From a virus (Duplodnaviria; Caudoviricetes), in the IMG/VR virus record IMGVR_UViG_3300035156_000156, positions 508-64,507 of that record: DNA of 64,000 bases; one strand, 5' to 3'. The notes under the pieces were generated by a model. The model saw only the letters and a list, made by a program, of their open reading frames with translations. It did not search any database and had not been told where the DNA came from. The position numbers were made by a program, and so were the translations under genes. This document shows, one piece after another, positions 5,884-58,645 of the stretch. Positions within the stretch are counted from its first letter, which is position 1; every line of letters begins with the position of its first letter.

Positions 5884-6089
5884 TGGCCCACTTCGTGTTC
5901 GCAATCGACGGGGGTGGCTATGTCGGCACCCGCAAGAACAACGGCAAGCTGTACGAAAGCCGGCCCAGCGCGGCGGCCGACATCACGGAAGCCCGCGTGT
6001 TCAATACCAAGGCCGCCGCCTCGCGTGCTGGTGGATCACTCGGTCAGCAGGGCAAAGCCTTGGCCGTTTCGCTGACGGTGTGCCGATGA
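5883..6089 (+). CDS. Hypothetical protein
   Basis: TGATG coupling. Confidence 0.6.
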   Translation: MAHFVFAIDGGGYVGTRKNNGKLYESRPSAAADITEARVFNTKAAASRAGGSLGQQGKALAVSLTVCR

Positions 6090-36765: not shown

Positions 36766-37547
36766 TGCGGGCAGTGATGGCCCGCATGCTCGATGGCACG
36801 CCCCTGACCACCCCTGCGGCGGCCCTTGCCCTACGCCAGCACGCCATCGCCGAGTTTCCGCGCGAGTGCATCGGCATGATCGATGCGGCCGGGGCGTATC
36901 TGCCGCTGACGAACCACGCCGCGGGCGACGCCGCTGAGCGTCACGCGCTGGCCGATCGCCGCGTGGTGGCGCAGCAGATGGCCATCGGCAACCTGCGCGC
37001 GCTGTGCCACAGCCACCCCGGTGGCCCCGACTGCCCGAGCGAAACCGATATGATTTCGCAGATGGAAATGGAGGTGCCGTTTGTCATAGTCAGCACCAAC
37101 GGCACCGCGACCACCGAACCGTTCGCGTGGGGCGATCAGCTTATCGATGACGAACCGCTGATCGGCCGCCCGTTTCAGCACGGGGTGACGGACTGTTACG
37201 CCATGATCCGGGCCTATTATCGCACCGAACGCGGCGTGCTGCTGCCCGACTTTGCACGCAATTGGGAGTGGTGGCAGGACGAAACCCCCGGCGAAAAGGA
37301 TCTCTACAGCAGGCACTTCGCCGACGCAGGGTTCGCACAGATCAACCGCGCCGCGGTGCTGCCGGGTGATGTGTGGCTGGCCGCGATCAGGTCGGAAGTG
37401 CCGAACCATGCTGGCGTGCTGCTTGACGGGGGCCTCTCCCTGCATCACCCGTCATCGGGTCTGCCGCACGATCCCGGCCGGCTGTCGAAGCGTGACCCGA
37501 TCGCCCGGTGGACGCCTCACATAACGCACTGGCTGCGGAGGGCCTGA
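36765..37547 (+). CDS. Tail assembly protein K (JAB/MPN + NlpC/P60)
   Basis: PRECIG, HSHP..P..PSETD (JAB); GRPFQHGVTDCY and NHAGV..LHH (NlpC). Confidence 0.92.
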   Translation: MRAVMARMLDGTPLTTPAAALALRQHAIAEFPRECIGMIDAAGAYLPLTNHAAGDAAERHALADRRVVAQQMAIGNLRALCHSHPGGPDCPSETDMISQMEMEVPFVIVSTNGTATTEPFAWGDQLIDDEPLIGRPFQHGVTDCYAMIRAYYRTERGVLLPDFARNWEWWQDETPGEKDLYSRHFADAGFAQINRAAVLPGDVWLAAIRSEVPNHAGVLLDGGLSLHHPSSGLPHDPGRLSKRDPIARWTPHITHWLRRA

Positions 37548-37548
37548 A

Positions 37549-40500
37549 ATGCGCACCATCCATCTGCACGGCCGGCTAGGAACCAAGTTCGGCCGGAAGC
37601 ACAGCCTTGCCGTGTCGTCACCGGCCGAGGCGATGCGCGCCCTGTCGCACCTGCTGCCGGGCTTCTCGGCCTACGTCCGGGCGCGCAAGTACGCCGTGGC
37701 CGTTGGCGATGGCACGGTGATCGGCGAGCGACAGCTACGCATGCAACTGGCTGCTGGGCGCGACGTGCATATCGTGCCGGCCGGCGCGGCGTCGGGCATC
37801 GAAACGATCCTGTTGGGCGCGACCCTGCTGCTGACCGCAGTGGCGGCGGTGTCGGTGCTGTCGATGCCCAAGGCGGTAGCAGCATCGGCGCGCGAGGACG
37901 CGACCAAGACCGCCAGCTTCATTTTCGACGGCGCACAGAACAACAGCGAACAGGGCCACCCGGTGCCGCTGGTCTATGGCCAGATGCGCGTCGGCTCGAT
38001 CGTGGTCAGCGCAGGCATCAACACGTCAGACGCCAACGCGATGTCGCTCGGCACCAATCCGGCGAACCCGTACCTGTCGGGCACGTACAAGGATCGGGTG
38101 GGCATCACCGCCGGCTTCCTTAGCGGCAACAGCCGCGAATGGGTGGCGTTTGAAAAGGGCGGCAAGGGCGGCGGCGGGGGCACGACGCGAAGCGCGCAGG
38201 AAGACCCCAATTCGCTGCAATCGCAGGCCACGGCCAAGATCGTTGACCTTGTGTCGGAAGGCGAAATCGTCGGCTTGGTCAACGGCATGCAGTCGATCTA
38301 TTTCGACGGCACGCCACTGGCCAACCCGGACGGCACGTTCAACTTCGCCGGGGTCGCGGTCGAACAGCGGCTCGGACTGCCCGATCAGGAATTCATGCCG
38401 GGCTTTGCCGATACGGAGTTGACGCGACAGATCGGCACTGACGTGACGGCCAACGGCGGCCCGGTGACGCGCTCGATCGAGGACGGCGACGTGACCGTGG
38501 CGCGCGTCACGATCCGCCTGCCGCAACTGTTCCAGCAGGACACCACCAACGGCGACCTGAAACAGAGTTCGGTAGAGGTGGCCATATCGGTGCAGGCCGA
38601 TGGCGGCGGCTTCACCGAGATTGTGCGGTCGCAGTTCGTGGGCAAAACGAACAGCCCCTATCAGCGCAGCTTCGACATTCGTTTGCCCAACGGCACGACG
38701 CGCGACGTGCGCGTGACGCGCATCACGCCCGACAGCGATGTGGCCAGCCTACAGAACGACACCGTTTTCGACCTGCTGACCGAGGTGGTGGAGGCCAAGC
38801 TATCCTACCCGGACAGCGCCCTGTTCGGCCTGACCGTGGACGCCAAGCAGTTCGGGACGAACATTCAGGGCCGGGCCTACGAAATCAAGGGCCTGATCAT
38901 TGAAGTGCCGAGCAACTATAACCCGGTGACGCGGGCCTATAGCGGCATATGGGACGGCACGTTCAAGCGCGCGTGGACTGACAATCCGGCGTGGGTGTTC
39001 CGCGATATTCTCGTCAGCCGTCGATATGGCCTCGGCGCTCGCATCCCTGAAAGCGCGATCGACAAGTGGGGCCTGTACGCAATCGCGCAGTATTGCGACG
39101 GCATGGTGCCCGACGGATTCGGCGGCACGGAACCGCGCTATACGATCAACTGCGCCATCACGAACCCGGCCAGCGCCTACGACCTGCTGGCATCGATCGC
39201 GTCGAACTTCCGTGGCTGGGCCTATTGGGGTTCGGGCACCGTCATGGCGGTGCAGGATCGCCCGGAAGACCCTAGCATCCTTGTGACGCCATCGAACGTG
39301 GTGGACGGCCAGATCAGCTATGGCCGCATCACGCCGCTGGAAAAGCGCCGTTCGGTTGCCGTGGTCTACTGGAACGACCCCGACGACGGCTACAAGCTGG
39401 CCCCCGAAATCTACGAAGAACCCGCGTTGATCCGTCGATTCGGCCGGCGCACCGGCGAGGAAGTCACCGCGTTCGGTGTCACCCGCCGGGGCCATGCGCA
39501 CCGCTTCGCGCGGTGGCTGATCGAGGACGAGTCACAGGCCAGCAACGCAAGCGCCTCCTATCAGGTCGGCGACGATCACGCCTTCGCCGAGCCGGGCCGC
39601 ATCGCGACGATCGCCGACCCGATGTACAGCAGCCTGCGCCGCGGCGGGCGCGTCCGGGTCGCGACCACCACATCGGTGGAACTCGACGCCCCGGTGACGA
39701 TCGCCAACGGGCAGCAATACTTGCTGCGCGTCATGTTGCCCGATGGCACTGTGCAGCGCCGCGCCGTGTTCCCACAGCCGGGGCAATCGGTGGTGATGCC
39801 GATCACCGCGCCGCTGTCGCTCGCGCCGAAGCCGGGCGCTGTCTGGACGCTGGAAACCGACGCGGTGGCCAACCGCCAGTTCCGCATCCGGGCGCTGACC
39901 ACCACCGCCGCGCCGTACAGCGTACAGGGACAGCTATACGATCCGACCAAGTACGAACGGGTTGAACTGGACCGCGACATCAGTTCGCCGAACTATCTGG
40001 GCGTGCCGCAGGGCGGGCTTGGCCTGCCACGCAACCTGTACGCATTCGAGTTCCTGTTCCCCAACGGCACCGCCTCGGTCCCTGCGGTGCAGATGGGGTG
40101 GCAGCATCCCGACGATCCGCGCGTGCTGTACTATCAGGCGCAGGTTCAGCGCCCCGGCGGGCAGTGGGAAGCTGCCGGCGACTCGAGCGACTCCACCCGC
40201 GTCATCCGGCCGGCCGAGCCGGGCAGTTGGGGCTTCCGGGTGCGCTCGCTCGATGCGCTGGGCAACAAAACCGCGTGGGTGCAGATCACCGCGCCGCTTG
40301 ACGGCCAAGTCGATCTGATCCCCAACCCATACGATCTGACGCTGAACGTCAGCGAAGACGCGGGGATTGCGGCGCTCGTGTGGACCCCGCCTATCGACTT
40401 CCGCCCGCTGCGGTTCGAAATCATGTACAACATCGCCGACGATTATGCCGGGGCGGCCTCGCTCGGCATCGTGGACGGTGCCAGCTTCGTGGTTATCGAA

Positions 40501-43395
40501 ACCGGCTTCTATTGGGTGCGGTCAACCTTCCTCGGCTACACGTCAAGCACGCCGCCATCGGCGTCAGTGTCGGCCGCCGACCTCCCCAGCGGCATCTTCG
40601 CCGCGGCGCTCGACGCGATCACGAATGACGCCATTCTGTCGGGCAAAGAGAAGCGCCGGACGAAGGCCGACCGCGATGCGTTGCAGGCCGACGCCAACGC
40701 GCTTTATGTCCAGTATCTGGCACTGGGATCGCCCACCGACATCGCCGACGAAATCGCGGCGCAGGACGCCGCGCTGATCGGCCTCGATAATTATCTGGCG
40801 ACGATCGCGCCAAGCTGGGTGGACTTCACCCAGCCCTCGCCAATCGTGCCTGCGGACTATGCGACGGCGTTCCTGAACGCCCGCGACAAGGTGGCCAAGC
40901 TGAACGCGGCGATCACCGGCCGCCCCGGTGCCAACGGGGCCAGCACGTTCACGCTGACGCCGATCAATGCGACGGCGGTGGGCGTCGATAGCGTGCGCCC
41001 GCTTAACCCGGCGAATGATGAATGGTCGGGCAAAGCCCAAACGGTGCAAGGCTACAAACAGGCCGCGGTTTCGGGATACATGACCGTCAACGCGGGTTTC
41101 GGCCTCACGACGGACCCGCTCGCAAATACTAGCTTCGACACCGTCGATTATTGGTTCCACCGATCGGCAAATGGCAGCTTGAATGTTTACCGCAACGGCG
41201 CATTTATTCTGTCACTCCCTGACGATGAAGCCGGCACGCCAGACACTCCATCGGGACCGTTTCAGGTGGTCGCCGACGGTAAGACGGTGCGGTATCTATA
41301 CAAGGGCGTTGAACGCTACAGCCATGAGGTAAATCCCGGCGACGGCCCCCTGTTCGGCGTCTTCAATTTTGCCAACATGATCAGCCGCCCACAAGTGCGC
41401 ATTGATCGCGTCACCTTCGCATCGGCGGGGCAAGCCGGCAGCAGCGCGTTCAACCTGATCGCATATGGCGGCGGCAGGCTCTTGAGCAGCAACAGCGTGG
41501 CCAAGCAAAGCGGCGTGCAAGGCGTATCGGACTCCGGTGCTTACTCCTTGGAAGGCTGGCGCGGCGGTTGCCAATTGTCGTTTGTCACGATGCCGGGCTG
41601 GTACACCGCAGGCGGGTTGAACGACTCGCCCGGCGCATCGACCAACTTAGAAGACATCGACTTCGCTTGGCATTGCGTGCCCAACGGCAACGCTAACGAC
41701 CTTCAAATCTTCGAAAACGGTCAGTATATCGGCAGTTATGGCTTCGTTGGTGGCCCCGTGCGGCTTGCCATCATCTATAACAACAAGACCGTGCGCTACC
41801 TGCTTGACGGTGCAACGGTACGCGAGGTTCCGACGACTGCCGATCGGCTGTTCTATTTTGACAGCAGCATCTGGACGCTGGGTTCGCGGCTGGATCAGAT
41901 CGCATTTGCCTCGGCCGGTGCCGCTGGTGCCAGCGCGATCGTGGCGCAGCTTACCAACGGCACGCACACCCTGCCGGCCAATTACTATGGCATGGTCAGC
42001 AGCTATGCCGGCGCATCGACCGATGTGGTGGTGTTCGACGGCGCGCAGGACGTGTCGGCCGATTACGTGCTGTCCACCGCACCGGGCGGCAATCCGCAGT
42101 CGCTGTTCGTCAGCTACTCGGGCCGCACTGCCACCGTCACAGGCGGCTTTGACGCTTCTGAGGACGTGGCATCGCTGACGATCCGCGCCACCGGCACCGG
42201 GCTGCATGCCGGGCAGCCGCCAATTGATCGCGTGTTCAGCCTGTCGAAGTCGAAGGGCGGGCTGGATGGGTCGCAAGGTGCCCTGATCAGCCTTTCTGCC
42301 AGCGCGATCACCGCGCGCTACAATGCTGATGACCAGTATGTCGGCAGCGGCATCACTTTTGTGGCTAACAGGCAGAACACCAACTCGCCGACCGCGTGGC
42401 GGCTGTTCAGCAATGCGGGCGACTCCATATTCGGCTACGCTCAAGCCGCCGATTTCGTCGCGGCTGAACCTACGTATTGGAGTTCTACCGGAAACGACAA
42501 TCTGACGCTGACGCCTGTCGGGGTCGATTTTCACATGGATACTTATGGCAACGGCATCTCGCTTGCTGCGGCGATTTCCGGCACCTCTATCATCGACACG
42601 GCTTCAATTTCAAAGGTCAAGGATGGCACCAACGGCGAAAACGGTCTGCCCGGTGCCGACGGCTTCATTGTGGACACCGAGACGGTGGCCTTCGTGCAGC
42701 CGGTGTTTTCGAGCGGTGCCAACAAGCCTTCGTGGACCGGGGGTTCGGGCACCATCCGGCTGACCAAGGGAAAGTCGCGCATCACCAGCGGCGTGACCTA
42801 TGCCGTGCTGACCATCGTCAACATCGCCAGCCTGTCGCTGGCTGGCGACACGTTCAGCTTCGCCGGCACGAACTCGGACAAGGGCAGCTTCACGATCCGC
42901 GCGATGTACGACGGCGTTGCCTACGATCGCACTGTGACCGTCACCAAGGTGGCCGACGGCGAAGCCGCGTTCCGGGGTTCGACGGTGCTGGGCGTGCAGA
43001 GTGTCGGCGCTGGCGTGGTATCGATGGGCAACGCGACCACGACGGTGCCGGGCGGTCGCGGCTGCACCCTGTCGGCGGTGGTCAACTATGACTTCACCAC
43101 CAATCAGACGAGCGATTATGTCGGCCGGCTGCACCTATATTGGCGAAATGCCACCGACAACGGACCGCTGAACTACCTTGGCTTTCAGGACGGCTCGGCA
43201 GCGGGTGTCTTCAACGCGGGCACGGTTGAAGAACCGCAATATGTGCGCACGCCGGGCACGGTCAGCGCCAGCTTTGCTTTCCAATCGCCGACCGCAGATA
43301 AGGCGATTTACTTCGAGGCGAGGATTGAGCGCATAGCCGGCGGCGGCGGCAATGCTCGGGCATCGGGGTCGATGAAGTTGGAGGTGTCGTCGTGA
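37549..43395 (+). CDS. Fusion of tail assembly protein I and central tail fibre / host-specificity protein J
   Basis: MRTIHLHGRLG.KFG...QGHPVPLVYG (gpI); KGGKGGGG, DLVSEGEIVGL, WDGTFKRAWTDNPAW (gpJ); FN3-like and repeat domains. Confidence 0.92.
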   Translation: MRTIHLHGRLGTKFGRKHSLAVSSPAEAMRALSHLLPGFSAYVRARKYAVAVGDGTVIGERQLRMQLAAGRDVHIVPAGAASGIETILLGATLLLTAVAAVSVLSMPKAVAASAREDATKTASFIFDGAQNNSEQGHPVPLVYGQMRVGSIVVSAGINTSDANAMSLGTNPANPYLSGTYKDRVGITAGFLSGNSREWVAFEKGGKGGGGGTTRSAQEDPNSLQSQATAKIVDLVSEGEIVGLVNGMQSIYFDGTPLANPDGTFNFAGVAVEQRLGLPDQEFMPGFADTELTRQIGTDVTANGGPVTRSIEDGDVTVARVTIRLPQLFQQDTTNGDLKQSSVEVAISVQADGGGFTEIVRSQFVGKTNSPYQRSFDIRLPNGTTRDVRVTRITPDSDVASLQNDTVFDLLTEVVEAKLSYPDSALFGLTVDAKQFGTNIQGRAYEIKGLIIEVPSNYNPVTRAYSGIWDGTFKRAWTDNPAWVFRDILVSRRYGLGARIPESAIDKWGLYAIAQYCDGMVPDGFGGTEPRYTINCAITNPASAYDLLASIASNFRGWAYWGSGTVMAVQDRPEDPSILVTPSNVVDGQISYGRITPLEKRRSVAVVYWNDPDDGYKLAPEIYEEPALIRRFGRRTGEEVTAFGVTRRGHAHRFARWLIEDESQASNASASYQVGDDHAFAEPGRIATIADPMYSSLRRGGRVRVATTTSVELDAPVTIANGQQYLLRVMLPDGTVQRRAVFPQPGQSVVMPITAPLSLAPKPGAVWTLETDAVANRQFRIRALTTTAAPYSVQGQLYDPTKYERVELDRDISSPNYLGVPQGGLGLPRNLYAFEFLFPNGTASVPAVQMGWQHPDDPRVLYYQAQVQRPGGQWEAAGDSSDSTRVIRPAEPGSWGFRVRSLDALGNKTAWVQITAPLDGQVDLIPNPYDLTLNVSEDAGIAALVWTPPIDFRPLRFEIMYNIADDYAGAASLGIVDGASFVVIETGFYWVRSTFLGYTSSTPPSASVSAADLPSGIFAAALDAITNDAILSGKEKRRTKADRDALQADANALYVQYLALGSPTDIADEIAAQDAALIGLDNYLATIAPSWVDFTQPSPIVPADYATAFLNARDKVAKLNAAITGRPGANGASTFTLTPINATAVGVDSVRPLNPANDEWSGKAQTVQGYKQAAVSGYMTVNAGFGLTTDPLANTSFDTVDYWFHRSANGSLNVYRNGAFILSLPDDEAGTPDTPSGPFQVVADGKTVRYLYKGVERYSHEVNPGDGPLFGVFNFANMISRPQVRIDRVTFASAGQAGSSAFNLIAYGGGRLLSSNSVAKQSGVQGVSDSGAYSLEGWRGGCQLSFVTMPGWYTAGGLNDSPGASTNLEDIDFAWHCVPNGNANDLQIFENGQYIGSYGFVGGPVRLAIIYNNKTVRYLLDGATVREVPTTADRLFYFDSSIWTLGSRLDQIAFASAGAAGASAIVAQLTNGTHTLPANYYGMVSSYAGASTDVVVFDGAQDVSADYVLSTAPGGNPQSLFVSYSGRTATVTGGFDASEDVASLTIRATGTGLHAGQPPIDRVFSLSKSKGGLDGSQGALISLSASAITARYNADDQYVGSGITFVANRQNTNSPTAWRLFSNAGDSIFGYAQAADFVAAEPTYWSSTGNDNLTLTPVGVDFHMDTYGNGISLAAAISGTSIIDTASISKVKDGTNGENGLPGADGFIVDTETVAFVQPVFSSGANKPSWTGGSGTIRLTKGKSRITSGVTYAVLTIVNIASLSLAGDTFSFAGTNSDKGSFTIRAMYDGVAYDRTVTVTKVADGEAAFRGSTVLGVQSVGAGVVSMGNATTTVPGGRGCTLSAVVNYDFTTNQTSDYVGRLHLYWRNATDNGPLNYLGFQDGSAAGVFNAGTVEEPQYVRTPGTVSASFAFQSPTADKAIYFEARIERIAGGGGNARASGSMKLEVSS

Positions 43396-51499: not shown

Positions 51500-51554
51500 T
51501 GATCTGTGTGCCCGAAGTGTGCGGTGCCCGCAACACCTTTCCGCATAAAGCGGG
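51500..51554 (-). promoter_or_regulatory. Early promoter cassette 3
   Basis: Minus strand TTGCGG-N17-CACACAGATCA; palindrome 51520-51532; upstream CCCGCTTTATGCGG. Confidence 0.7.
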
Positions 51555-51715
51555 TATTATTTCAGCCCCGGACAAGCGAGCCGGGCGTGCGGGGGCCGCA
51601 CCGTGCCGATCCACTCGCCGCAGCGGCTGTTGGGCCGGAAATCGCGATCGGGATGCGCGAGCGTTTCGGCCGTGCTATGCGCAGGCATCGCCAACGCCAC
51701 GCAACGGGGTGTCCC

Positions 51716-52957
51716 ATGATCCGCAACTATCTCGCCGCCGCCCTTCTGCTTGTCGGGGCCACCCCCGCCAGCGCGCAGATCACCACATACATCGGCCCCG
51801 ATCGCAAGCCGCAGACGGTGGACGCCGCCCACCCGCTGCCCGTCACCTCGGCCAGTGGTGGCGGCACCGCGGGCGGCGCGACCGCCGCCAATCAGACCAC
51901 GCAGATCACCGCCGAGCAGGACACGCGCGATCGGCTTGGTGCCACCAGCGCCCCGGCTGCGGGCACCGTCAACGCGCAGCTTGGTGCGATCCGCACCGCG
52001 CTCGGCACCCCGGCACAGGCTGGCGGTCCGGTCAGCATCACCGGGGCCGTTCCATTGCCCACGGGCGCGGCTACCGCGGCGCGACAGGACGCAATGCTGA
52101 CGGCCCTTGGCACTCCGTTGCAGGCTGGCGGTTCGGTGAGTGTCGCGGGGACAGTTGCAACGGCGCTTGACGGCATCACGGACGGCGCAGCGACTCCCTT
52201 TAGCGTCGCGGCTCCGGTGACGGCGGGCGGCAACGTCGTCGCGTCCACCAACGTGACCGGCTATTCGTCGCTGTTCCTCTACCTGACCAGCATTCAGACC
52301 AGCGGTGCAACGCTAACGCTTCAGCAGAGCTACGATAACACCAACTGGATTTCTGTTTTCGGGCAGAACCCGAACACGAATAACAGCTTGGGTTCCACCC
52401 AGACGGTCGGCACCTTCGCGCCTTATTTCTACCAAATCCAAGCGCCTTACATTCGGATCATTCAAAACGGCACGGGCACGGCGGGCACGACTACGGGCAC
52501 GATTGTCCTCAAGCGCCAAGCCTATGCGCCGCAGACGTACGGGCAGACCACGGCGATCATCACGGCGGCGGGCGCAAACATCAAAATGGACGCCACCGCC
52601 GGGACCGGCTTTCCGGCTTCGACCGCGTTCCAATTGCTGTCGGCCGCGACCACCAATGCGACTGTGGTGAAGGCATCCGCCGGGAAGCTGGTCTATGGCT
52701 CGATCGCGAACCTGTCGGCCGCGGTGAAGTTCGTGCGGTTCTACGCCACGGCAGCCGTGCCGGTGCCCGGAACCACGGCGCAAGTCCGCGTCGTCGCAGT
52801 GCCACCGAACACGACGATCGGTATTCCGTCGGTGCTGGGCGCGTTCGGCATGTACTTTTCGACCGGCATCGCGATCTCGATCACGGGCGGCGCGGCCACG
52901 GCCGACACCACCCCGGTCGCCGCTGGCGATGTGCTGGTGGACCTCGGCTACCTGTAA
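51716..52957 (+). CDS. Signal-peptide-bearing, Thr/Ala/Gly-rich beta-structured protein
   Basis: MIRNYLAAALLLVGATPASA-Q signal; ALGTP.QAGG repeats; TNATVVKASAGKL domain. Confidence 0.8.
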   Translation: MIRNYLAAALLLVGATPASAQITTYIGPDRKPQTVDAAHPLPVTSASGGGTAGGATAANQTTQITAEQDTRDRLGATSAPAAGTVNAQLGAIRTALGTPAQAGGPVSITGAVPLPTGAATAARQDAMLTALGTPLQAGGSVSVAGTVATALDGITDGAATPFSVAAPVTAGGNVVASTNVTGYSSLFLYLTSIQTSGATLTLQQSYDNTNWISVFGQNPNTNNSLGSTQTVGTFAPYFYQIQAPYIRIIQNGTGTAGTTTGTIVLKRQAYAPQTYGQTTAIITAAGANIKMDATAGTGFPASTAFQLLSAATTNATVVKASAGKLVYGSIANLSAAVKFVRFYATAAVPVPGTTAQVRVVAVPPNTTIGIPSVLGAFGMYFSTGIAISITGGAATADTTPVAAGDVLVDLGYL

Positions 52958-52998: not shown

Positions 52999-53793
52999 TC
53001 ACAACCCGGCTTGCGGGCGATGCGGCGGGTGTTGATTGGCCCGCTTCCAGAACAGGTGTTCGTCAGCCCGCATCAGCGCGAGGTGCGCGATCACGTCATC
53101 GGTGGGGCACATCGCGCCGGCCCAACTGTCGGCGTAGTAGGCGATCGGGTGCATGCACAGCGCGCACAGCATGCGCATGCCCTGATCCCGCTTGCCGGCC
53201 GCCAGCGCGAGCGTCGGCCGCAGCTTGCGGAATATGTACGTGACGCCCGAGCGCGGCGACGTTTCGATGAACATGCCGGTTAGCAAGTACTGTTTGAAGG
53301 CGACGTGCCGCAGCATCGTGCCCAGCAGTTGCACCGCCCGGCCTTCCTGTTCGATGCCCCACGCCGACGAACAACCCAGCGTGCGCAGATCGTGTTCGAT
53401 GTGATTGTGCCCCGGCACCTTTCCCCAACTGATCACGCCGTCGCGTTCCATGATCAAAATGTCGCAGCGGTGGCGGCGCGAGTACCATTGATTCCGCAGC
53501 CGCCATCCGTCGTCGTCATCGTCTGGGCCAGCCTTGCGGGCGAAGGCCGCCGCGAACGGGTAGGACGGTTCTACGATCAGGTGTTCGCCCTCAAGCGGCA
53601 TCGGGATGCCGGCCCATTCGGCTTTGTCGCCAGCCACTTCGAACAGCTTGGATCGCAGATCATGCAGCGGGTCGCAGGCCCTAACCGCCCGCCGTCCTCG
53701 CGACTGCGACGGCATCGGTGCTGCTTGCTGCGACACGGATTTGCGCCGCTCTTTGCTTGCGGCGGCGCGGCGGGATTGGCGGCTCTTGGTCAT
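52999..53793 (-). CDS. Unknown protein with Cys/His/Asp motifs; partner of the -GG protein
   Basis: GAGGA RBS; LCMHPIAYY...AMCPTDDVIAHL..MRADEHLFWKRANQH. Confidence 0.8.
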   Translation of the reverse strand: MTKSRQSRRAAASKERRKSVSQQAAPMPSQSRGRRAVRACDPLHDLRSKLFEVAGDKAEWAGIPMPLEGEHLIVEPSYPFAAAFARKAGPDDDDDGWRLRNQWYSRRHRCDILIMERDGVISWGKVPGHNHIEHDLRTLGCSSAWGIEQEGRAVQLLGTMLRHVAFKQYLLTGMFIETSPRSGVTYIFRKLRPTLALAAGKRDQGMRMLCALCMHPIAYYADSWAGAMCPTDDVIAHLALMRADEHLFWKRANQHPPHRPQAGL

Positions 53794-54040
53794 GGGCGGA
53801 GTCCTCGGGCATGGGGTCGCCGGCAATAATATATTCGGCGGTGTTTTCATCGAACGACAGGGCGCGGCGATAGACCGGCCCCTTCTCGTCTTTGCCGACC
53901 TCGATCAGCAGCACGAAGCCGCGCCGGATCATATCGGTGACGGTCTTTGCCGCCTTGGCCACATCGGCCGGCTTGGTGTTATCGAAGACCAGCTTGGTGT
54001 CGCCGGCTCCTACGTTCAGAATCCCTATCGAACCGGGCAT
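53681..54040 (-). CDS. 119-aa protein ending in a C-terminal diglycine (putative ubiquitin-like)
   Basis: AAGGAG RBS; ends AVAVARTAGG-stop; CDS call is firm, ubiquitin-like call is inference. Confidence 0.75.
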   Translation of the reverse strand: MPGSIGILNVGAGDTKLVFDNTKPADVAKAAKTVTDMIRRGFVLLIEVGKDEKGPVYRRALSFDENTAEYIIAGDPMPEDSAHDQEPPIPPRRRKQRAAQIRVAASSTDAVAVARTAGG

Positions 54041-54213
54041 CGTCGTGGCTCCTTGGTAGTGATCGTGTGCGGCTGGCCGGCAGCAGCCGCCACGGCGGCA
54101 TCGGTGGCGGCCTGCGCCGACGGGTGCGGCAGGTTGCCCCAATGGCCCGCCAGCGACAGCGTGACGCCGCCCTGTCGGCGGTTGGGGGTGATGATGAAGT
54201 CCATCTTGGTCAC
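54025..54213 (-). CDS. Hypothetical protein
   Basis: GTGA coupling to the HNH-like gene. Confidence 0.5.
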   Translation of the reverse strand: MTKMDFIITPNRRQGGVTLSLAGHWGNLPHPSAQAATDAAVAAAAGQPHTITTKEPRRCPVR

Positions 54214-54587
54214 AGCGTCACCGCCCGGCCCGTGGCACATTCCAGTTCGAAGGCCAGTTGCCCGGCTTTGGCCAAGATGCGCTTACGCCTCGATTCGGCG
54301 TGGTGCGCGGCGTCATAGGCCAAGTGACACTTGTTGCAGGCGGCCATCAGATTATCGTCGTCGCTATGCTCGGGCACGTGATCAAGGTGGGCCGTGGTCA
54401 ACACCACCACCGACCCGGTTTCCGGGTGCGCGCACCCGTGGCGGGCTTCGCATCGCCCGCCAGCGTGCACCTGACCGCACCGCCCATCGCACTCGCACCG
54501 GCCCTGTGCCCGCTGGAACCGGATGCGCAGGCTGATCGCCTTCCAATCCTTGGGATAACGCTTGGCGTTGTCGGGATGGATCGGCAC
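54210..54587 (-). CDS. HNH-like zinc-binding phage protein
   Basis: RYPKDW..IS..IR..RA..RCEC...VVLTTAHLDH.PE....NL.A.C.KCHL.YD. Confidence 0.8.
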   Translation of the reverse strand: MPIHPDNAKRYPKDWKAISLRIRFQRAQGRCECDGRCGQVHAGGRCEARHGCAHPETGSVVVLTTAHLDHVPEHSDDDNLMAACNKCHLAYDAAHHAESRRKRILAKAGQLAFELECATGRAVTL

Positions 54588-54590
54588 GGA

Positions 54591-55226
54591 TCAGGCCCCC
54601 GTCAGCACGCTGTGCAGCCGCAGAAATCGGTGCGCCGCGTCGTCAGGGTGGGCGTAGGGAATGATCCGCGCTTCGAACGGTTCGTACCCCTCGGTTGATG
54701 TCTGCCCGCTGCCGCCATTGTCCCACACTTCGTTCGCGTGCCCGGCCAGCAGATCACGGCGTTCCGTCACCAGCATGCGAATGTCGAACCGCTTGATCAG
54801 CGCCGGGTCCGGGCACACCACGCCGAACCGCGCGTCGATCGCAGCGCCGCACCGCTTGATCACAGCCCGGAAGCTGTCACCCATCAGCGGCTTGACCGGC
54901 CCCGGCACGTCGCCGAACGGCACTTCGTCGGATTCGTGCATCAGGAACGCCAGCGCGTGCGGCTTGCCGTAGCCCTCGCGCAGCAGGTGTTCCGCACCCC
55001 GCACGCAATGTTCGCCGACGCCGTAGAACATGCGTTTGCCGTCGCTGCGAGCCTGCCCGCGCCAGCGCACGGTGTACGCCAGCGCAAAGGCATAGTCCTC
55101 GATCGTCATCGTGGTGGATTCGGGCGCTTCGAAATCGAAGTAATTGCCCCCGCCCCATGCGATCGTCGCGCCGCGAATGTGCTTGCGCGCTTCCGCGCCC
55201 ACCTCGGCTGTCACTGCACCACCCAT
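54591..55226 (-). CDS. HD-family phosphohydrolase (YfdR-like nucleotidase)
   Basis: FYGVGEHC...LMHESDE..FGDVPGPVK...D.RML.TERRDL. Confidence 0.8.
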   Translation of the reverse strand: MGGAVTAEVGAEARKHIRGATIAWGGGNYFDFEAPESTTMTIEDYAFALAYTVRWRGQARSDGKRMFYGVGEHCVRGAEHLLREGYGKPHALAFLMHESDEVPFGDVPGPVKPLMGDSFRAVIKRCGAAIDARFGVVCPDPALIKRFDIRMLVTERRDLLAGHANEVWDNGGSGQTSTEGYEPFEARIIPYAHPDDAAHRFLRLHSVLTGA

Positions 55227-55546
55227 CACTTCGCCCCTTCCGCGTCGAGCATATCGGCCAGCCGCATGAACGATGCGCCGAACGTGCGCGCCGCTGCTGC
55301 ATCGAGTTGGGCCACCAGCCCCTTGCCCATGGCCCCGGCGGCAGGATCGGGCGCAGTGTAGATCAGCACCACCACCCGGCTGTCCTTTGGGTCCGGGCGC
55401 TTGCCCAGCATGGTGGTGAAGCCCGGCGCATCGTTGCACAGCACCGGGCCGCGCACGGTTTCAATGATGCGTTCGCCCATCAACGGCGCGCCGGTTTCGA
55501 TCGACTCCGACGACGCCATCTTGATCGGCTTGAGCGGCTTGGCCAT
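55226..55546 (-). CDS. Hypothetical protein
   Basis: GAGGA RBS; TGATG coupling. Confidence 0.65.
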   Translation of the reverse strand: MAKPLKPIKMASSESIETGAPLMGERIIETVRGPVLCNDAPGFTTMLGKRPDPKDSRVVVLIYTAPDPAAGAMGKGLVAQLDAAAARTFGASFMRLADMLDAEGAK

Positions 55547-56613
55547 CAGCTTTCCTCCCCTGCGAACTTCGCCAGCGCGTTTGTCTCGGCCTTGTCGCAC
55601 TTGTCGAACAGTTCGATGTCCGTGCCCATCAGCTTCTTGAGGCCCTTCGACCCCTTGACCACCAACCGGCGCACTTCGGCGACATCGCGAGCCGCGCCCA
55701 AGTCTTCGATGTACTGCGCCGCCCAGCCCGCCGGGGTGTTGATGTCGTGCCCGCTGGCCGACAGCACGGGTTCGCGGGGTGCATCGGCCTGCTGGCGTTC
55801 CTGCTGCGGCTCCTGCACCTTCTGCTGCGGCGGGGGATCGTCGCGCACCTGCTGGCGCTGGGCACCGGGCAACGCCGGGGCACCGCCCAGCCGGGCGTGC
55901 GTGCCCGAACTGATCACCACCGCCTTGTCCTTTTGGTTCAGCCGACCGAACCATGCCGCATATTCGCCGTCGTCGGCGGCCTGCTGCGCGCCGACCAGCA
56001 ACGATTCCTGCCGATCGTTCAACTGTGCGCCGATCAGCGCGGTGCCGCCGTCATTGTCTTCGCCATCGAAACGCAGATTTAGCGTGGCCTTGGCGGCATA
56101 ACGTTGCAGGTAGCTGGCCGATGATCCGACCGATTGGATGGCACTACGCCCCGGCCCGGTGTCGGGCGGCCCCTTGATCGCGTGGCCGTGCTGAATCCAG
56201 CCGTTGGTGTGCCGAAGCACCGGCACCACCGTGATGTTGTTTCCTTCGTTGCCGATCAGATAATCGAGCGACAAATTGTTCGCCATCAGCACGGGGTCGG
56301 TGACGCGCTGTATGTCTTCGAATCGAGCGTACTTGGTCTTTTGGTGATTGTTTTCCCCGCGCTTAAAGACCGGCGCTATCTCGGCCTTGGCCTTGATCAG
56401 ATCGCGGTTGAACTCGGCCTGCCGGTCGCGATCTTCCAGCTTGAACATCAGGTCGGCCATGGCCACTGCCTTGGCCGGGTCCACGTCCGGGTTGGTCAGC
56501 GCCTCGCGCAGCAGCGACAGGCGCTGTTCGACGGTGATGCCGCCGCCGCTGGGCGCTGTTGCCACCTCCTGCCGGCCGCCGTCATATGCGGCCACGTTGC
56601 GGTTGTCAGTCAT
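55546..56613 (-). CDS. erf: ERF-family ssDNA annealing protein
   Basis: KYARFEDI...LRHTNG...QSVGSSASYLQRY...EDNDG. Confidence 0.88.
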   Translation of the reverse strand: MTDNRNVAAYDGGRQEVATAPSGGGITVEQRLSLLREALTNPDVDPAKAVAMADLMFKLEDRDRQAEFNRDLIKAKAEIAPVFKRGENNHQKTKYARFEDIQRVTDPVLMANNLSLDYLIGNEGNNITVVPVLRHTNGWIQHGHAIKGPPDTGPGRSAIQSVGSSASYLQRYAAKATLNLRFDGEDNDGGTALIGAQLNDRQESLLVGAQQAADDGEYAAWFGRLNQKDKAVVISSGTHARLGGAPALPGAQRQQVRDDPPPQQKVQEPQQERQQADAPREPVLSASGHDINTPAGWAAQYIEDLGAARDVAEVRRLVVKGSKGLKKLMGTDIELFDKCDKAETNALAKFAGEES

Positions 56614-57341
56614 CGTCCACTTCTCCGGTCAAGTTCGATTGCGGCGTTGTATTTCAGGTCTTCTTCCATGGTGGCATTCTGCACCATCCACGACAGGAAC
56701 CCGTGCGGCACGTCGGCCCACGGCTTGCCGCGGTGTTCGCCGATCGGGCAGCGCGGCATCAGCGCCGGTTGGCGCGACCACGCCGATAGCTGTGGCCCGG
56801 TCATTCCGGCGTCGTACAGCGCCTTCAACACCCACGCCGTGGCGTAGGCGTCGGGCAGGGCGCGGTGTGACGGCGTGATGCGCTCGGCGATCGGGGCGAC
56901 CTTGCCCTGATCCTCAAGCCAATACAGCAGGCCGAACACGCTGTGGCTGGGCGCTTCCGGCCATATGCGCAGCGCCGCCTTGTAGCTGCACAACAGTGGT
57001 ATGTTGCCCTCGGCGGCCCGTTGCACCCACTGGCCTTCGAAGTCGGCCTTGTGGGCGACCAGCGCCACCGCCGGGCGGGCCAGCGCAGCCGTCACCAGCT
57101 TCTCGGCATCGAACGCCGGCAGCAGCCCGCCGGTGGCACACCGCAGGTCGCTGGCCCTGATGTGGTGCACCATGCGCGTTTCCGGGGGCACAACCTCGGC
57201 ACCGCACAGGTAGCTGTCGCCGGTCAGCACCTTGCCGGCGGTGCGGTCATAGTCGCAGAACCCCACCTCGATCACCTCGGCAGGCGGGGCCATGCCGGTG
57301 GTTTCGAAGTCGAACACGCGCATGATCAGCGGTTCGGTCAC
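56610..57341 (-). CDS. DEDDh 3'-5' exonuclease (exonuclease X-like)
   Basis: DFETTG, VAHKADFE, HRALPDAY; C-terminal GEHRGKPWADVP..FLSW. Confidence 0.9.
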   Translation of the reverse strand: MTEPLIMRVFDFETTGMAPPAEVIEVGFCDYDRTAGKVLTGDSYLCGAEVVPPETRMVHHIRASDLRCATGGLLPAFDAEKLVTAALARPAVALVAHKADFEGQWVQRAAEGNIPLLCSYKAALRIWPEAPSHSVFGLLYWLEDQGKVAPIAERITPSHRALPDAYATAWVLKALYDAGMTGPQLSAWSRQPALMPRCPIGEHRGKPWADVPHGFLSWMVQNATMEEDLKYNAAIELDRRSGR

Positions 57342-58645
57342 TGTACGCCGTCCAGCCAATAGCCGTTGAAGTCGATGTCGCTGAACGTGCCCTCGGGTTC
57401 GATCGGCTGCCATGGCTGGCCGGGTTCGTACACCTGCGAGTAAAGCACGAACTGCCCCTTGGCGTGTTCGACATCAACCAGCCCGCGCATGAACAGCTTT
57501 GTGCGCTTGCGCGCGCCTTCCTCCACCGCAGCGACCGCGGCGTCATCAGCCCCGGCGTGGCCCAGCTTGGTGTTGAACGGCACTTCGTAGAACTGAACGT
57601 GCCGGCTCCACAGGTTCGGGATGCCGCCCTTTTCTTGGAACACGTAGTGGCAGGCCAGTTCGGACGGCTTGATCTGGATTGCCGCGATCAGCGCGCGTTG
57701 ATCGTCGGTGGCCTCGCCGATGATGCACAGGCCATCGTTGCGCACCGCCTCGATCCCCTCGCGATACGTGACGGCCTGCATGTAGTAGCGCGAATAACGG
57801 AAGGCGTCAGACAGCGCCTGTTCGGTGTTTTTGCCGTTCGGGTTGGCGTACGATTTCAGATCGGTCCACAGGTCGGGTCGCAAGTAGTCCACCCGGCACT
57901 TCATCTTGATGCCGTCTGCATCGGTCCAGAAGATCGACACTTCGGCCGCGCCGCCGGTGAACTTGTCAGCGATCGGGCTGCTGGCCATGCGCTGCATATC
58001 GACCACGATGTCATCCCACACCTCGGCGGGCAGCGGCACCCGGTCGCCGCGCTCGGCCTCCCACGCCGCCAGTTCGGTGTGCCAGACCGTGCCGGGGTAG
58101 CCGGCGTCGGCCAGCCGCTTGGCCTGTTCGGCAACGCTGCCCGACTTCGGCAGATCAAGGTCGCCCAGCGCCTTCGACATATCGGTGCCGGTGAACAGCG
58201 TGCCCTTGGGCATATCGCCCTTGTCCAGCGCGCGCACGTAGCGGTCGGCAAAGGCATCAGGCTCGAGTCTGGCGCAGTGGTAAGCCTTGCCGATCACCTG
58301 CGCCGGGGTGCTGCCGTCGTCCAGCGGTGCGCGATCGGGATCAAGCCACGAACCTGCCCAGAACGTGCCGGGCGACACCGCGATCTTGGCCAGCCCGGAA
58401 GCCGACAGGCGCGGCACGCCGTGGTAAACCTCGTCGGGCAGGTCGAAATAAACGCCGTCAACGATGGCGTCGATCTGCGCCTGTATCTTGGCGATGCGAT
58501 CGGCGGCGCTGGTGTCGTCGGCCGGTTCCGTATCCGTCGGCAGCACGGTGCCGGTTGCAGCCTTGCGCGCCTTGGTCGCCTTGGCGGCCGGCGGGTCGGC
58601 GGGCACTTCGATGCCGTTCAGGGCGTCATCAAACATATTGGCCAT
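57338..58645 (-). CDS. RecE / exonuclease VIII-like PD-(D/E)XK nuclease (DUF3799)
   Basis: YH....LSASGL, GKAYHCARLEP, EVSIFW...KCRVDYL...DLKS, YYMQA..Y. Confidence 0.88.
   Translation of the reverse strand: MANMFDDALNGIEVPADPPAAKATKARKAATGTVLPTDTEPADDTSAADRIAKIQAQIDAIVDGVYFDLPDEVYHGVPRLSASGLAKIAVSPGTFWAGSWLDPDRAPLDDGSTPAQVIGKAYHCARLEPDAFADRYVRALDKGDMPKGTLFTGTDMSKALGDLDLPKSGSVAEQAKRLADAGYPGTVWHTELAAWEAERGDRVPLPAEVWDDIVVDMQRMASSPIADKFTGGAAEVSIFWTDADGIKMKCRVDYLRPDLWTDLKSYANPNGKNTEQALSDAFRYSRYYMQAVTYREGIEAVRNDGLCIIGEATDDQRALIAAIQIKPSELACHYVFQEKGGIPNLWSRHVQFYEVPFNTKLGHAGADDAAVAAVEEGARKRTKLFMRGLVDVEHAKGQFVLYSQVYEPGQPWQPIEPEGTFSDIDFNGYWLDGVQ

What the first reader, a model, noticed from the sequence alone, without database searches (positions are those of the whole stretch)
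52999..54040. Candidate phage ubiquitin-like modifier (C-terminal -AGG) coupled to an unknown Cys/His protein
Seen: a 119-aa protein with a strong RBS ends exactly in a hydrophobic strand plus ARTAGG-stop. By eye its pattern is strand (SIGILNV), strand (TKLVFD), helix (PADVAKAAKTVTDMIRRG), strands (FVLLIEV, YRRALSF, EYIIA), a disordered insert, then a final strand (AVAVA) and GG. The next gene overlaps its 3' end by 113 nt and carries LCMHP...MCPTDD...H...DE..FW..AN. Known: a beta-grasp fold with exposed C-terminal GG defines Ub/ThiS/MoaD modifiers, and bacterial defences such as Bil and CBASS Cap2 use E1/E2 conjugation, in Bil onto the phage central tail fibre. Inference: this may be a two-gene phage conjugation system with a non-canonical ligase or protease, or a decoy for host E1/E2 defences. 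No E1 is recognisable in the window.
Basis: partly seen in the sequence, partly recalled or inferred. Interest (0 to 1): 0.8.

Follow-up and report, generated by a model that had tools for sequence, protein, structure and literature searches.

The report
Phage Gly-Gly-tail protein with Cys-His partner
This phage carries a widespread but undescribed pair of overlapping genes: a small protein that always ends in Ala-Gly-Gly, like ubiquitin and sulfur-carrier proteins, and an enzyme-like partner with a never-changing Cys-x-His site, which may form a minimal protein-tagging or carrier device with no activating enzyme of its own.

Summary
On the minus strand, a 119-aa gene (54040..53681) ends in ...AVAVARTAGG-stop. 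A 264-aa gene (53793..52999) overlaps it by 113 nt in the +1 frame.

Conservation is strong:
- The terminal GG is present in all 120 listed homologues, 38 of 38 true viral loci and 12 of 12 complete genome loci.
- All synonymous codons are used, so selection acts on the protein.
- The pairing is reciprocal: all 46 full-length partner loci carry the small gene next to it (45 upstream, 1 downstream).
- The partner has an invariant Cys-x-His-Pro (158 of 158).

No sequence library names either protein. Fold matches are below the noise level: the small protein looks as much like Hfq as like a beta-grasp, and the partner's C-terminal half recurrently matches UBC/RWD folds at Z 4.5 or less. The complete 64.5-kb phage has no E1.

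My best reading (0.4) is that the Gly-Gly tail is held and covalently handled at the partner's Cys-His site, as in E2-only CBASS or MoaD/MoaE. Rivals are a non-covalent docking tail, a sulfur carrier and a decoy.

This scan has noted the same module on other DNA (e1-5971383 and others). I found no paper describing it.

The parts
53681..54040 (-). Gene for the 119-aa Gly-Gly-tail protein (P0001), stop codon included
   Evidence: ORF and translation. 531 homologues at E<=0.01. The start agrees with alignment A1.
54049..54054 (-). Shine-Dalgarno AAGGAG, 8 nt before the ATG of the small gene
   Evidence: Read from the sequence.
53816..54040 (-). Conserved N-terminal alpha/beta domain (residues 1-75) with the invariant loop ILNVGAGDTK
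   Evidence: Invariant columns in A1. AlphaFold2 strands and helix with pLDDT 81-84 over residues 21-70.
53744..53815 (-). Variable, basic, low-confidence linker (residues 76-99). Most of it is read in two frames.
   Evidence: Variable length and sequence in A1. pLDDT is below 50 for 76-87 and 93-96. Family lengths run from 106 to about 163 aa.
53684..53743 (-). Conserved C-terminal segment R-V-x-A...AVAVARTAGG (residues 100-119). Two modelled strands are followed by the free tail ARTAGG-COOH.
   Evidence: A-G-G is invariant in 39 of 39 sequences, with all four synonymous codons used at each position and all three stop codons. The +1 frame peptide is variable there. Strands 100-104 and 110-113 appear in the model.
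52999..53793 (-). Gene for the partner protein (P0002, 264 aa from the ATG at 53793), stop codon included
   Evidence: ORF. 1762 homologues at E<=0.01. 616 representatives at E<=0.001 in the 50%-identity library.
53802..53806 (-). Shine-Dalgarno-like GAGGA, 8 nt before the partner's ATG, inside the small gene
   Evidence: Read. Flagged by the scan (window: ATG at -113 with SD).
53681..53793 (-). 113-nt out-of-frame overlap: partner start in the +1 frame of the small gene's 3' end
   Evidence: 49 of 51 distinct loci have the partner in the +1 frame. 23 of 51 have no start codon between -40 nt and the conserved WAGIP motif. 31 of 51 have an SD-preceded ATG at -98 to -167. This is also seen in a 30% G+C phage.
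53149..53157 (-). Codons for the invariant Cys-Met-His (Cys213 and His215 of the 264-aa form; C187 and H189 in A2 numbering), followed by Pro
   Evidence: Cys 158 of 158, His 158 of 158 and Pro 156 of 158 aligned sequences. In the model the motif sits at the end of strand 180-187.
52999..53400 (-). C-terminal half of the partner (about A2 residues 105-238): helices, a four-stranded sheet, the Cys-x-His-Pro loop and two helices. Weakly UBC/RWD-like. It ends in a conserved RPEAGL.
   Evidence: Model pLDDT is 77-98 here. Matches: Ubc9 Z 4.5, RWD Z 4.3 and 4.0, UEV 3.7, E2S 3.5; Mad1 RWD 3.4, CENP-O/P 3.0. Conservation.

Best explanation
The two genes form one self-contained, translationally coupled phage module.

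The small protein is a carrier- or modifier-type protein. It has a folded alpha/beta domain, a variable basic loop, and a short free tail ending in ...V-A-R-T-A-G-G-COOH.

I propose that the tail threads into a narrow pocket of the partner, beside the invariant Cys-x-His. There the terminal glycine would be handled covalently, as a thioester followed by transfer or hydrolysis. The pair would then work like a ubiquitin-like protein with a stand-alone E2, as in E2-only CBASS. In gene layout it resembles MoaD with MoaE.

The phage has no activating enzyme of its own. Activation would have to come from the partner itself or from a host ThiF/MoeB-type enzyme.

Shown: the conserved GG terminus under protein-level selection, the obligate pairing and overlap, the invariant Cys-x-His, and the absence of an E1 in the phage.

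Inferred: that the tail binds the partner, that any covalent chemistry occurs, and what the target is.
For: 1. The tail is selected as protein. A-G-G is invariant in 39 of 39 sequences while every synonymous codon and all three stops are used, and the overlapping +1 frame peptide varies. GG also ends 120 of 120 listed homologues, 12 of 12 complete genome loci and 45 of 45 upstream copies down to 33% partner identity. The protein ends exactly there. Only 2 of 504 longer candidates matched, neither showing a clear extension of the tail: one looks like a miscalled long ORF cut at its contig end, the other a distant relative of the N-domain with a different C-terminal part.

2. The pairing is obligate. 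All 46 full-length partner loci carry the small gene next to it, including one with the order swapped. Other neighbours are not conserved: the next most common gene is in 7 of 38 loci.

3. Three of the 150 listed partner representatives are natural fusions. Two join ...AGG directly to the partner's Met. One joins the N-domain straight to the partner core.

4. The partner has an invariant Cys-x-His-Pro plus many invariant Asp, Glu and Arg residues.

5. The only recurring fold class for the partner's C-terminal half is UBC/RWD/UEV. The His-Pro follows the fourth strand, where (from my recall, not checked in any call) E2s carry HPN and RWD domains carry YP.

6. There are precedents:
- A stand-alone bacterial E2 with Cys plus His holds a C-terminal glycine tail in its pocket. 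It forms thioester and isopeptide bonds and acts as a cysteine protease without an E1 (10.1101/2022.05.25.493364, passages).
- The GG end of MOCS2A and the start of MOCS2B are read from 77 overlapping bases in two frames (PMC9607355, passages).
- Bacterial E2-like domains with a shifted Cys/His arrangement are described (PMC1779556, passages).
Against: - No sequence library names either protein: Pfam, PHROGs, PADLOC, NCBIfam and PDB sequence profiles.
- All fold matches are at Z 5.0 or less. The tool's own notes say unmatched models typically reach 7-8.
- The small protein's model matches Hfq (Z 5.0, 63 of 66 residues) at least as well as any beta-grasp.
- The cysteine at the place expected for an E2 active site, downstream of His-Pro, is Val or Thr in 32 of 159 sequences. 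The invariant Cys lies two residues before the His.
- hhalign gave no signal against Prok-E2_A or Prok-E2_B (probability 0.6% or less), though the positive control was itself weak at 14.5%.
- The complete phage has no ThiF-type E1. 9 of 11 host genomes show no Prok-E2_A or Prok-E2_B hit.
- No nucleotide-binding motif was recognised in the partner by eye or by any library.
- The three fusions are singletons.
Confidence: 0.4

Rival explanations
1. Non-covalent docking tail. The conserved C-terminus is only a tether, like the C-terminal tip of SSB, that fastens the small protein to the partner or to a host protein. The partner's Cys-x-His and acidic residues act on some other substrate, perhaps DNA or nucleotides in the recombination region.
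For: The architecture is a folded domain, a variable disordered linker and a short invariant tip.

One natural fusion (P0268) joins the N-domain directly to the partner core. It drops the linker, the tail and the partner's first 72 residues. This is what one expects if tail and partner N-terminus only serve to hold the two together.

The module sits among exonuclease, ERF, HD phosphatase and HNH genes here, and near RecT, RecE and integrase genes elsewhere.

No E1 is present.
Against: Known docking tips end in bulky hydrophobic residues (recalled). An invariant Ala-Gly-Gly points to a narrow channel of the kind that E1s, E2s, DUBs and MoaE use.

The neighbours of the pair are not conserved, so a role tied to recombination genes is not indicated.

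P0268 is a singleton.
Confidence: 0.3
2. Sulfur carrier. The GG terminus is adenylated and thiocarboxylated by host MoeB/ThiF and a cysteine desulfurase. The partner is a sulfur-transferring synthase for a phage-specific product, with the logic of MoaD/MoaE, ThiS/ThiG or TtuB/TtuA.
For: In prokaryotes, GG-ended small proteins are mostly sulfur carriers (established knowledge).

Host ThiS and MoaD end in VGGG and VTGG. ThiF-family enzymes are present in 4 of 4 host genomes tested.

Overlapping small-subunit and large-subunit genes are known for MOCS2. ThiS domains fused at an internal GGG to a longer protein occur in 4 relatives of one host.

An atlas feature search gave a weak ThiS lead, score 0.76.
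Against: There is no Pfam ThiS or MoaE match. hhalign gave no signal, but that test had no power: the MoaD-versus-ThiS control scored 0.7%. MoaE-like folds are not among the listed matches. No sulfur-related gene travels with the pair.
Confidence: 0.12
3. Counter-defence decoy or deconjugase. The tail mimics the glycine end of a host Ubl or CD-NTase, so that Bil-type or type II CBASS E1/E2 enzymes are blocked or diverted. Alternatively, the Cys-His partner strips such conjugates from phage proteins.
For: The module is mobile among unrelated temperate phages and sits in the accessory early region near the integrase, where anti-defence genes tend to lie.

Bil tags the phage central tail fibre. 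Its authors speculate that phage tail-assembly DUB domains counter it (10.1101/2023.09.04.556158, passages).

2 of 11 host genomes carry a Prok-E2_A or Prok-E2_B hit, against 5 of 301 and 10 of 401 in background samples. By my own rough binomial estimate this is not significant (about p = 0.08).
Against: 9 of 11 hosts show no such E2 (same calls; many are incomplete MAGs).

No host gene in 401 alphaproteobacterial genomes ends in the pattern A-V-A-R-[TS]-A-G-G-stop. That pattern is very strict.

A decoy would not need an obligate enzyme-like partner.
Confidence: 0.1

Closest known systems
E2-only (type II short) CBASS: stand-alone bacterial E2 with cGAS/CD-NTase (10.1101/2022.05.25.493364, passages seen)
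   Same: Both are two-component systems without an E1. A disordered C-terminal tail ending in glycine is inserted into the pocket of a small Cys-plus-His enzyme. That enzyme also cleaves residues after the glycine, which would suit the rare natural GG|Met fusions found here.
   Different: There is no detectable sequence similarity, and the fold match is only Z 4.5 or less. Here the invariant Cys lies two residues before the His-Pro, not downstream. The tailed protein is a 75-residue domain, not a nucleotidyltransferase. The module is phage-borne rather than a host defence operon.
MoaD/MoaE molybdopterin synthase, including human MOCS2A/MOCS2B (PMC9607355, passages seen)
   Same: Both have a small subunit with an essential GG end and a larger partner encoded next to it. 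In MOCS2 the GG end and the partner's start are read from the same 77 bases in two frames, as here with 113 bases. The activating enzyme is encoded elsewhere.
   Different: There is no Pfam ThiS or MoaE match. MoaD is only a Z 3.4-3.5 match for the small protein. The partner has a Cys-x-His site that, from my recall, MoaE lacks. The long disordered loop in the small protein is not a MoaD feature.
Bil and related bacterial Ubl/E1/E2/JAB operons (10.1101/2023.09.04.556158; PMC1779556, passages seen)
   Same: Both involve a small protein whose conserved C-terminal glycine is the business end, together with a Cys-bearing E2-like protein. Bacterial E2-like domains with an unusual Cys/His order are on record.
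   Different: Those systems carry their own E1 and JAB peptidase and belong to Pfam families (ThiF, Prok-E2, Prok-JAB). Here the phage has no ThiF match. Prok-E2_A and Prok-E2_B also gave no match, but nothing rang in the control genomes either, so that says little. The phage's only JAB hit lies 16 kb away in a lambda K-like tail gene.
Hfq/Sm fold
   Same: The model's helix plus five strands aligns to nearly the whole Hfq chain: Z 5.0, rmsd 3.4, 63 of 66 residues. The disordered insert falls where Sm proteins have their variable loop.
   Different: The score is below the tool's noise level. There are two extra N-terminal strands. Sm motifs and ring formation were not tested. Nothing in Hfq explains an invariant Ala-Gly-Gly terminus.
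SSB C-terminal tip
   Same: Both combine a folded domain, a variable disordered linker and a short invariant tip at the exact C-terminus that docks on partner proteins (recalled). A real SSB ending in DDEIPF turned up as the one false hit.
   Different: The tip here is small and uncharged (AGG), not acidic-hydrophobic. The protein is not an OB fold in the model.

Membership tests
Ubiquitin-like beta-grasp modifiers and sulfur carriers (Ub, ThiS, MoaD, SAMP, Urm1) | Free C-terminal Gly-Gly that is conserved | tested here: met
   GG in 120 of 120, 38 of 38, 12 of 12 and 45 of 45 sequences. Synonymous codons vary.
Ubiquitin-like beta-grasp modifiers and sulfur carriers (Ub, ThiS, MoaD, SAMP, Urm1) | Beta-grasp fold | tested here: inconclusive
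   The order of elements (strand, strand, helix, three strands) is compatible. However, PB1 4.1, Raf-RBD 4.4, Urm1 3.7 and MoaD 3.5 score no better than Hfq 5.0, and all are below noise. Foldseek found nothing at E<=0.001.
Ubiquitin-like beta-grasp modifiers and sulfur carriers (Ub, ThiS, MoaD, SAMP, Urm1) | Sequence membership (Pfam ThiS PF02597, ubiquitin and relatives) | tested here: not met
   0 Pfam families at E<=0.1. hhalign against host MoaD and ThiS gave 0.6% or less, but the control also failed. Atlas ThiS lead of only 0.76.
Ubiquitin-like beta-grasp modifiers and sulfur carriers (Ub, ThiS, MoaD, SAMP, Urm1) | Cognate E1-like adenylating enzyme in the same element | tested here: not met
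   ThiF PF00899 has 0 matches in the complete 64,507-bp phage record, while the control rang in 12 of 14 genomes. ThiF is present in 4 of 4 host genomes.
Ubiquitin-like beta-grasp modifiers and sulfur carriers (Ub, ThiS, MoaD, SAMP, Urm1) | Covalent adduct or thiocarboxylate at the terminal glycine | not testable with these tools
   Needs mass spectrometry or gels.
E2/UBC superfamily (UQ_con, Prok-E2, RWD, UEV) | UBC-like fold: helix, four-stranded antiparallel sheet, loop with [HY]-P, then helices | tested here: inconclusive
   The element order fits. Ubc9 4.5, RWD 4.3, 4.0, 3.4 and 3.3, UEV 3.7 and E2S 3.5 lead or recur. Mad1 and CENP-O/P RWD score 3.4 and 3.0. All are below the tool's noise level.
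E2/UBC superfamily (UQ_con, Prok-E2, RWD, UEV) | Invariant catalytic Cys downstream of the HPN-type motif | tested here: not met
   The downstream Cys (GAMCP) is C 125, V 22, T 10 of 159. The invariant Cys lies two residues before the His-Pro.
E2/UBC superfamily (UQ_con, Prok-E2, RWD, UEV) | Sequence membership | tested here: not met
   No Pfam hit in any of 63 members at E<=10. PADLOC gave none. hhalign against Prok-E2_A gave 0.6% and against Prok-E2_B 0.2-0.3%, with a weak positive control of 14.5%.
MoaD/MoaE-type two-subunit synthase | GG small subunit encoded next to, overlapping or fused with its partner | tested here: met
   Adjacent in 46 of 46 loci. Out-of-frame overlap in 49 of 51. 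3 fusions among 150 representatives.
MoaD/MoaE-type two-subunit synthase | Partner belongs to the MoaE family | tested here: not met
   No Pfam match. By fold the question stays inconclusive, since MoaE is simply not among the rows listed.
GG-specific cysteine peptidases (C39, DUB-like) | Invariant Cys and His | tested here: met
   Cys 158 of 158 and His 158 of 158. The C-x-H spacing is unlike papain-type enzymes (recalled).
GG-specific cysteine peptidases (C39, DUB-like) | Papain-like or other known peptidase fold, or sequence membership | tested here: inconclusive
   No Pfam match. No peptidase fold appears among the partner's listed matches.
Hfq/Sm | Helix plus five bent strands | tested here: inconclusive
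   Hfq Z 4.2-5.0 with 58-66 residues aligned, below noise. Sm motifs and hexamer formation were not tested.

The most novel reading that the evidence does not exclude
This is a minimal, E1-less protein-tagging system carried by hundreds of temperate phages. The small protein is a new kind of modifier with a ubiquitin-like tail on a fold that may not be a beta-grasp. The partner is a new Cys-His conjugating and processing enzyme descended from, or convergent with, the UBC/RWD fold. It loads the tail on its own cysteine and passes it to host or phage proteins early in infection, for example to disarm ubiquitin-like defences such as Bil or type II CBASS.
Probability: 0.17. Interest if true: 0.9.

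Novelty: new variant of a known kind. Interest (0 to 1): 0.72.

Why it matters
Ubiquitin-like tagging in bacteria has so far been seen from the host's side, in Bil, CBASS Cap2 and Bub. A phage-borne pair with the same logic would show the viral side of that conflict. It has a glycine-ended tail and a cysteine enzyme, but no activating enzyme and no detectable homology to the known systems. It would also offer a very small system for studying how a C-terminal glycine can be handled without an E1.

The family is large: 616 clusters at 50% identity for the partner. It spans phages or prophages in Alpha-, Beta- and Gammaproteobacteria and other phyla. It is absent from 50,697 deposited phage genomes, so it has escaped laboratory work.

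Even if the tail proves to be only a docking peptide, the conserved 100-170-nt dual-coding overlap is a clean example of coupled expression of two subunits.

Tried and rejected
**Artefact of overlapping frames: rejected.** The tail's amino acids are fixed while its codons vary, and the other frame's peptide varies. The overlap also exists in a 30% G+C phage, where open alternative frames are not expected.

**Programmed frameshift making a fusion: not needed.** Most loci have an SD-preceded ATG in the +1 frame. In the AT-rich phage the frame opens just before that ATG.

**The 'MCPTDD' cysteine as active site: rejected**.

**Complex prediction.** No verdict (scores 0.00, 0.60, 0.00). I count it neither for nor against binding.

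**Covariation between tail and partner columns.** I computed mutual information on 41 distinct pairs. Tail pairs did not stand above background, so this was uninformative.

**hhalign tests.** Runs against Prok-E2_A (10 sequences), Prok-E2_B (5), host MoaD (13) and ThiS (15) gave no signal. The positive controls were weak or failed, at 14.5% and 0.7%.

**Libraries and collections with no useful match.**
- Sequence libraries gave nothing: Pfam, PHROGs, PADLOC, NCBIfam and PDB profiles.
- Foldseek against PDB gave nothing at E<=0.001 for either model.
- BFVD gave one unnamed viral protein at E 1.2e-5.
- The ESM Atlas gave only viral 'hypothetical' clusters.
- tblastn found no match in GenBank phages or in plasmids.

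**Host mimicry.** The pattern for A-V-A-R-[TS]-A-G-G-stop matched 0 of 401 alphaproteobacterial genomes. The pattern is so strict that it also missed the prophage copy in G001.

**Host E2 enrichment.** 2 of 11 hosts had a hit, which is not significant.

**Literature.** Searches listed no paper on a phage GG-tail protein with a Cys-His partner. I saw only listings and abstract starts. I read passages of PMC1779556, 10.1101/2023.09.04.556158, PMC9607355 and 10.1101/2022.05.25.493364. Supplements were not opened. The additional files of PMC1779556 and Table S6 of the Bil preprint could list related families that I did not see.

**Not inspected.** Loci L150 and L156 (partial partner matches) were not examined.
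Full report
**What is there.**
The window is almost the whole of a complete 64,507-bp virus record with direct terminal repeats. On the minus strand, a leftward early operon encodes:
- an exonuclease VIII-like protein (58645..57338);
- a DnaQ-like exonuclease (57413..56610);
- an ERF annealing protein (56613..55546);
- an HD-type dNMP phosphatase (55439..54591);
- an HNH endonuclease (54587..54210).

The operon ends with the two genes of the finding. The first (54040..53681) gives 119 residues ending AVAVARTAGG-stop and has AAGGAG 8 nt before its ATG. The second runs to 52999. Its ATG at 53793, preceded by GAGGA, lies 113 nt inside the first gene in the +1 frame. Third-position G+C supports the first frame down to about 53830 and the second from about 53700. 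The two are level in between.

**Conservation of the tail.**
The small protein has 531 relatives at E<=0.01. All 120 listed end in GG: 107 TAGG, 5 VAGG, 5 TSGG, 2 IAGG and 1 ISGG.

A scan of viral contigs gave 39 loci. One was a false SSB-like hit. The other 38 all end in GG and all have the partner next. In those 38 plus the window, Ala-Gly-Gly is invariant, while all four codons are used at each of the three positions and TAG, TGA and TAA all occur. The peptide of the overlapping frame is variable there and is even interrupted in one locus. Selection therefore acts on the small protein's own C-terminus.

Thirteen genome loci were found. Their records name Sphingopyxis, Sphingomonadales, Cypionkella, Rhizobiaceae, Burkholderiales, Nevskia, Rubrivivax, Acetobacteraceae, Stellaceae, Elusimicrobia, Dehalococcoidia and Fibrobacteraceae. 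They give the same picture in all 12 that are complete.

The family has a conserved 75-residue N-domain with an invariant ILNVGAGDTK loop. It has a basic linker of variable length, with proteins ranging from 106 to about 163 aa. It ends in the conserved segment R-[VI]-x-A...AVAVARTAGG.

**The pairing.**
The partner has 1762 relatives at E<=0.01 and 616 representatives at E<=0.001 in the 50%-identity library. I then searched viral contigs from the partner's side and recovered 49 loci:
- 45 carry the small gene upstream, each ending in GG, down to 33% partner identity.
- One (L148) has it immediately downstream instead, ending IGRSAGG.
- Three are partial partner remnants without it. One of these was inspected.

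Other neighbours are not conserved. The next most frequent gene occurs in 7 of 38 loci. Contexts include RecT, RecE and integrase genes. The pair is therefore a mobile, self-contained unit.

**The overlap.**
I examined 51 distinct loci:
- In 49 the partner lies in the +1 frame.
- 23 have no possible start codon between -40 nt and the partner's first conserved motif (WAGIP).
- 31 have an SD-preceded ATG 98 to 167 nt inside the small gene.

The same layout holds in a 30% G+C phage. A few loci have only a 4- or 8-nt overlap, none at all, or an in-frame stop.

Three of the 150 listed partner representatives are fusions. Two read ...AGG directly into the partner's Met. One joins the N-domain to the partner core without linker, tail or the partner's first 72 residues. 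All three are singletons.

**What the proteins look like.**
The small protein's model (pLDDT 70) has strands 3-8 and 16-19, helix 24-39 and strands 43-51, 54-64 and 69-73. A low-confidence stretch covers 76-99. Two further strands (100-104, 110-113) follow, modelled at higher confidence (block mean pLDDT 82 for residues 101-110), and ARTAGG is left free. Structure searches are undecided: Hfq reaches Z 5.0, and PB1, Raf-RBD, DIX, Urm1 and MoaD reach Z 3.4-4.4. All are below the level the tool calls meaningful.

The partner's model (pLDDT 84.6) has two N-terminal helices, a three-stranded meander, helices, a four-stranded sheet, a loop and two helices. Over 159 sequences, Cys-x-His is invariant at the end of the fourth strand and is followed by Pro. 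Trp119, Glu124, Glu151, Ser153, Tyr160, Arg163, Asp207, Arg216, Asp218, Glu219 and Trp223 are also invariant. The Cys of GAMCP is not conserved.

Foldseek finds nothing. The exhaustive aligner puts Ubc9 first (Z 4.5) and lists four RWD domains, a UEV and E2S. The second look adds Mad1 and CENP-O/P RWD domains. This is a recurring theme, but not a significant match. No sequence library and no profile comparison supports membership of any E2 family.

**What is missing.**
The phage has no ThiF-type E1. Its only JAB domain is in a lambda K-like tail-assembly gene 16 kb away. Host genomes do carry ThiF-family genes (4 of 4). Only 2 of 11 have a Prok-E2_A or Prok-E2_B hit.

**Reading.**
An invariant, exactly terminal Ala-Gly-Gly points to a narrow pocket that sees the carboxyl end. 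The obligate enzyme-like partner with one invariant Cys next to a His is the obvious owner of that pocket.

Two known systems share this logic. The E2-only CBASS has a stand-alone Cys-plus-His E2 that grips the glycine tail of cGAS, forms thioester and isopeptide bonds and trims residues after the glycine, all without an E1. MoaD/MoaE, whose human genes overlap out of frame across the GG codons, is the other.

I therefore favour covalent handling of the tail at the partner's Cys-His site (0.4). The rivals are a purely non-covalent docking tail (0.3), a sulfur carrier that uses host MoeB/ThiF (0.12) and a decoy or deconjugase aimed at host ubiquitin-like defences (0.1). None of the chemistry is shown.

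**Novelty.**
No family in Pfam, PHROGs, NCBIfam or PADLOC covers either protein. No deposited phage or plasmid has them. My two literature searches listed no description (listings only).

Earlier notes and follow-up reports of this scan describe the same module on other DNA and reached similar readings. I saw them after forming mine and treat them as agreement between AI readers, not as evidence.

Noticed in passing
window 36651-37547 (+), Prok-JAB match at 36819-37112: A 298-aa protein with a Prok-JAB domain (E 5.1e-10) lies directly before the 1948-aa tail gene (37549-43395). This is the lambda K-like tail-assembly arrangement. The Bil preprint speculates that such DUB domains counter Ubl tagging of the tail fibre.
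   Followed up: partly
P0250 (partner homologue, 413 aa): An HNH_3 endonuclease domain (E 1.1e-9) is inserted in frame in the partner, between LMRGD and the conserved C-terminal QHPP..EAGL. It replaces the invariant Glu, Trp and Arg there.
   Followed up: partly
P0249 (partner homologue, 340 aa): Four tandem copies of a 17-residue unit (VDQKATHHASxLISTLG) are inserted at the His-His...TLG loop of the partner.
   Followed up: no
L148:2797-4136: The gene order is swapped. The partner comes first and the Gly-Gly-tail gene starts at its stop (ATGA overlap). It still ends in SAGG.
   Followed up: yes
L047 and L048, 4992-6002: In a 30% G+C phage the small gene is intact (106 aa, ends ARTAGG). The partner is split into two ORFs (5215-5577 and 5628-6002) in both records. 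This is either a broken gene or an assembly error.
   Followed up: no
L015 / L040 (same contig): The partner lies in the same frame as the small gene, separated only by a TGA after GG. Read-through would give a fusion.
   Followed up: no
window 51506-52957 (+): A 483-aa ORF converges on the partner's stop. It has no Pfam or PHROGs match. Another first-stage note (e1-6206507) reads it as a secreted fibre-like protein.
   Followed up: partly
L099, L100, L102, L107: In relatives of one host, a ThiS domain ending ...VHFIGGG continues in frame into a 325-328-aa protein, so the GGG is internal. The C-terminal part was not identified here.
   Followed up: no
L039:2131-2481: The one false hit of the viral scan is an SSB-like protein ending in the classic DDEIPF tip.
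   Followed up: no
P0243 (224 aa): A distant relative of the N-domain (47% identity) continues into a coiled-coil-like C-terminal part instead of the AGG tail. It comes from contigs of 1.4 kb or less, so it may be a frameshifted assembly.
   Followed up: no
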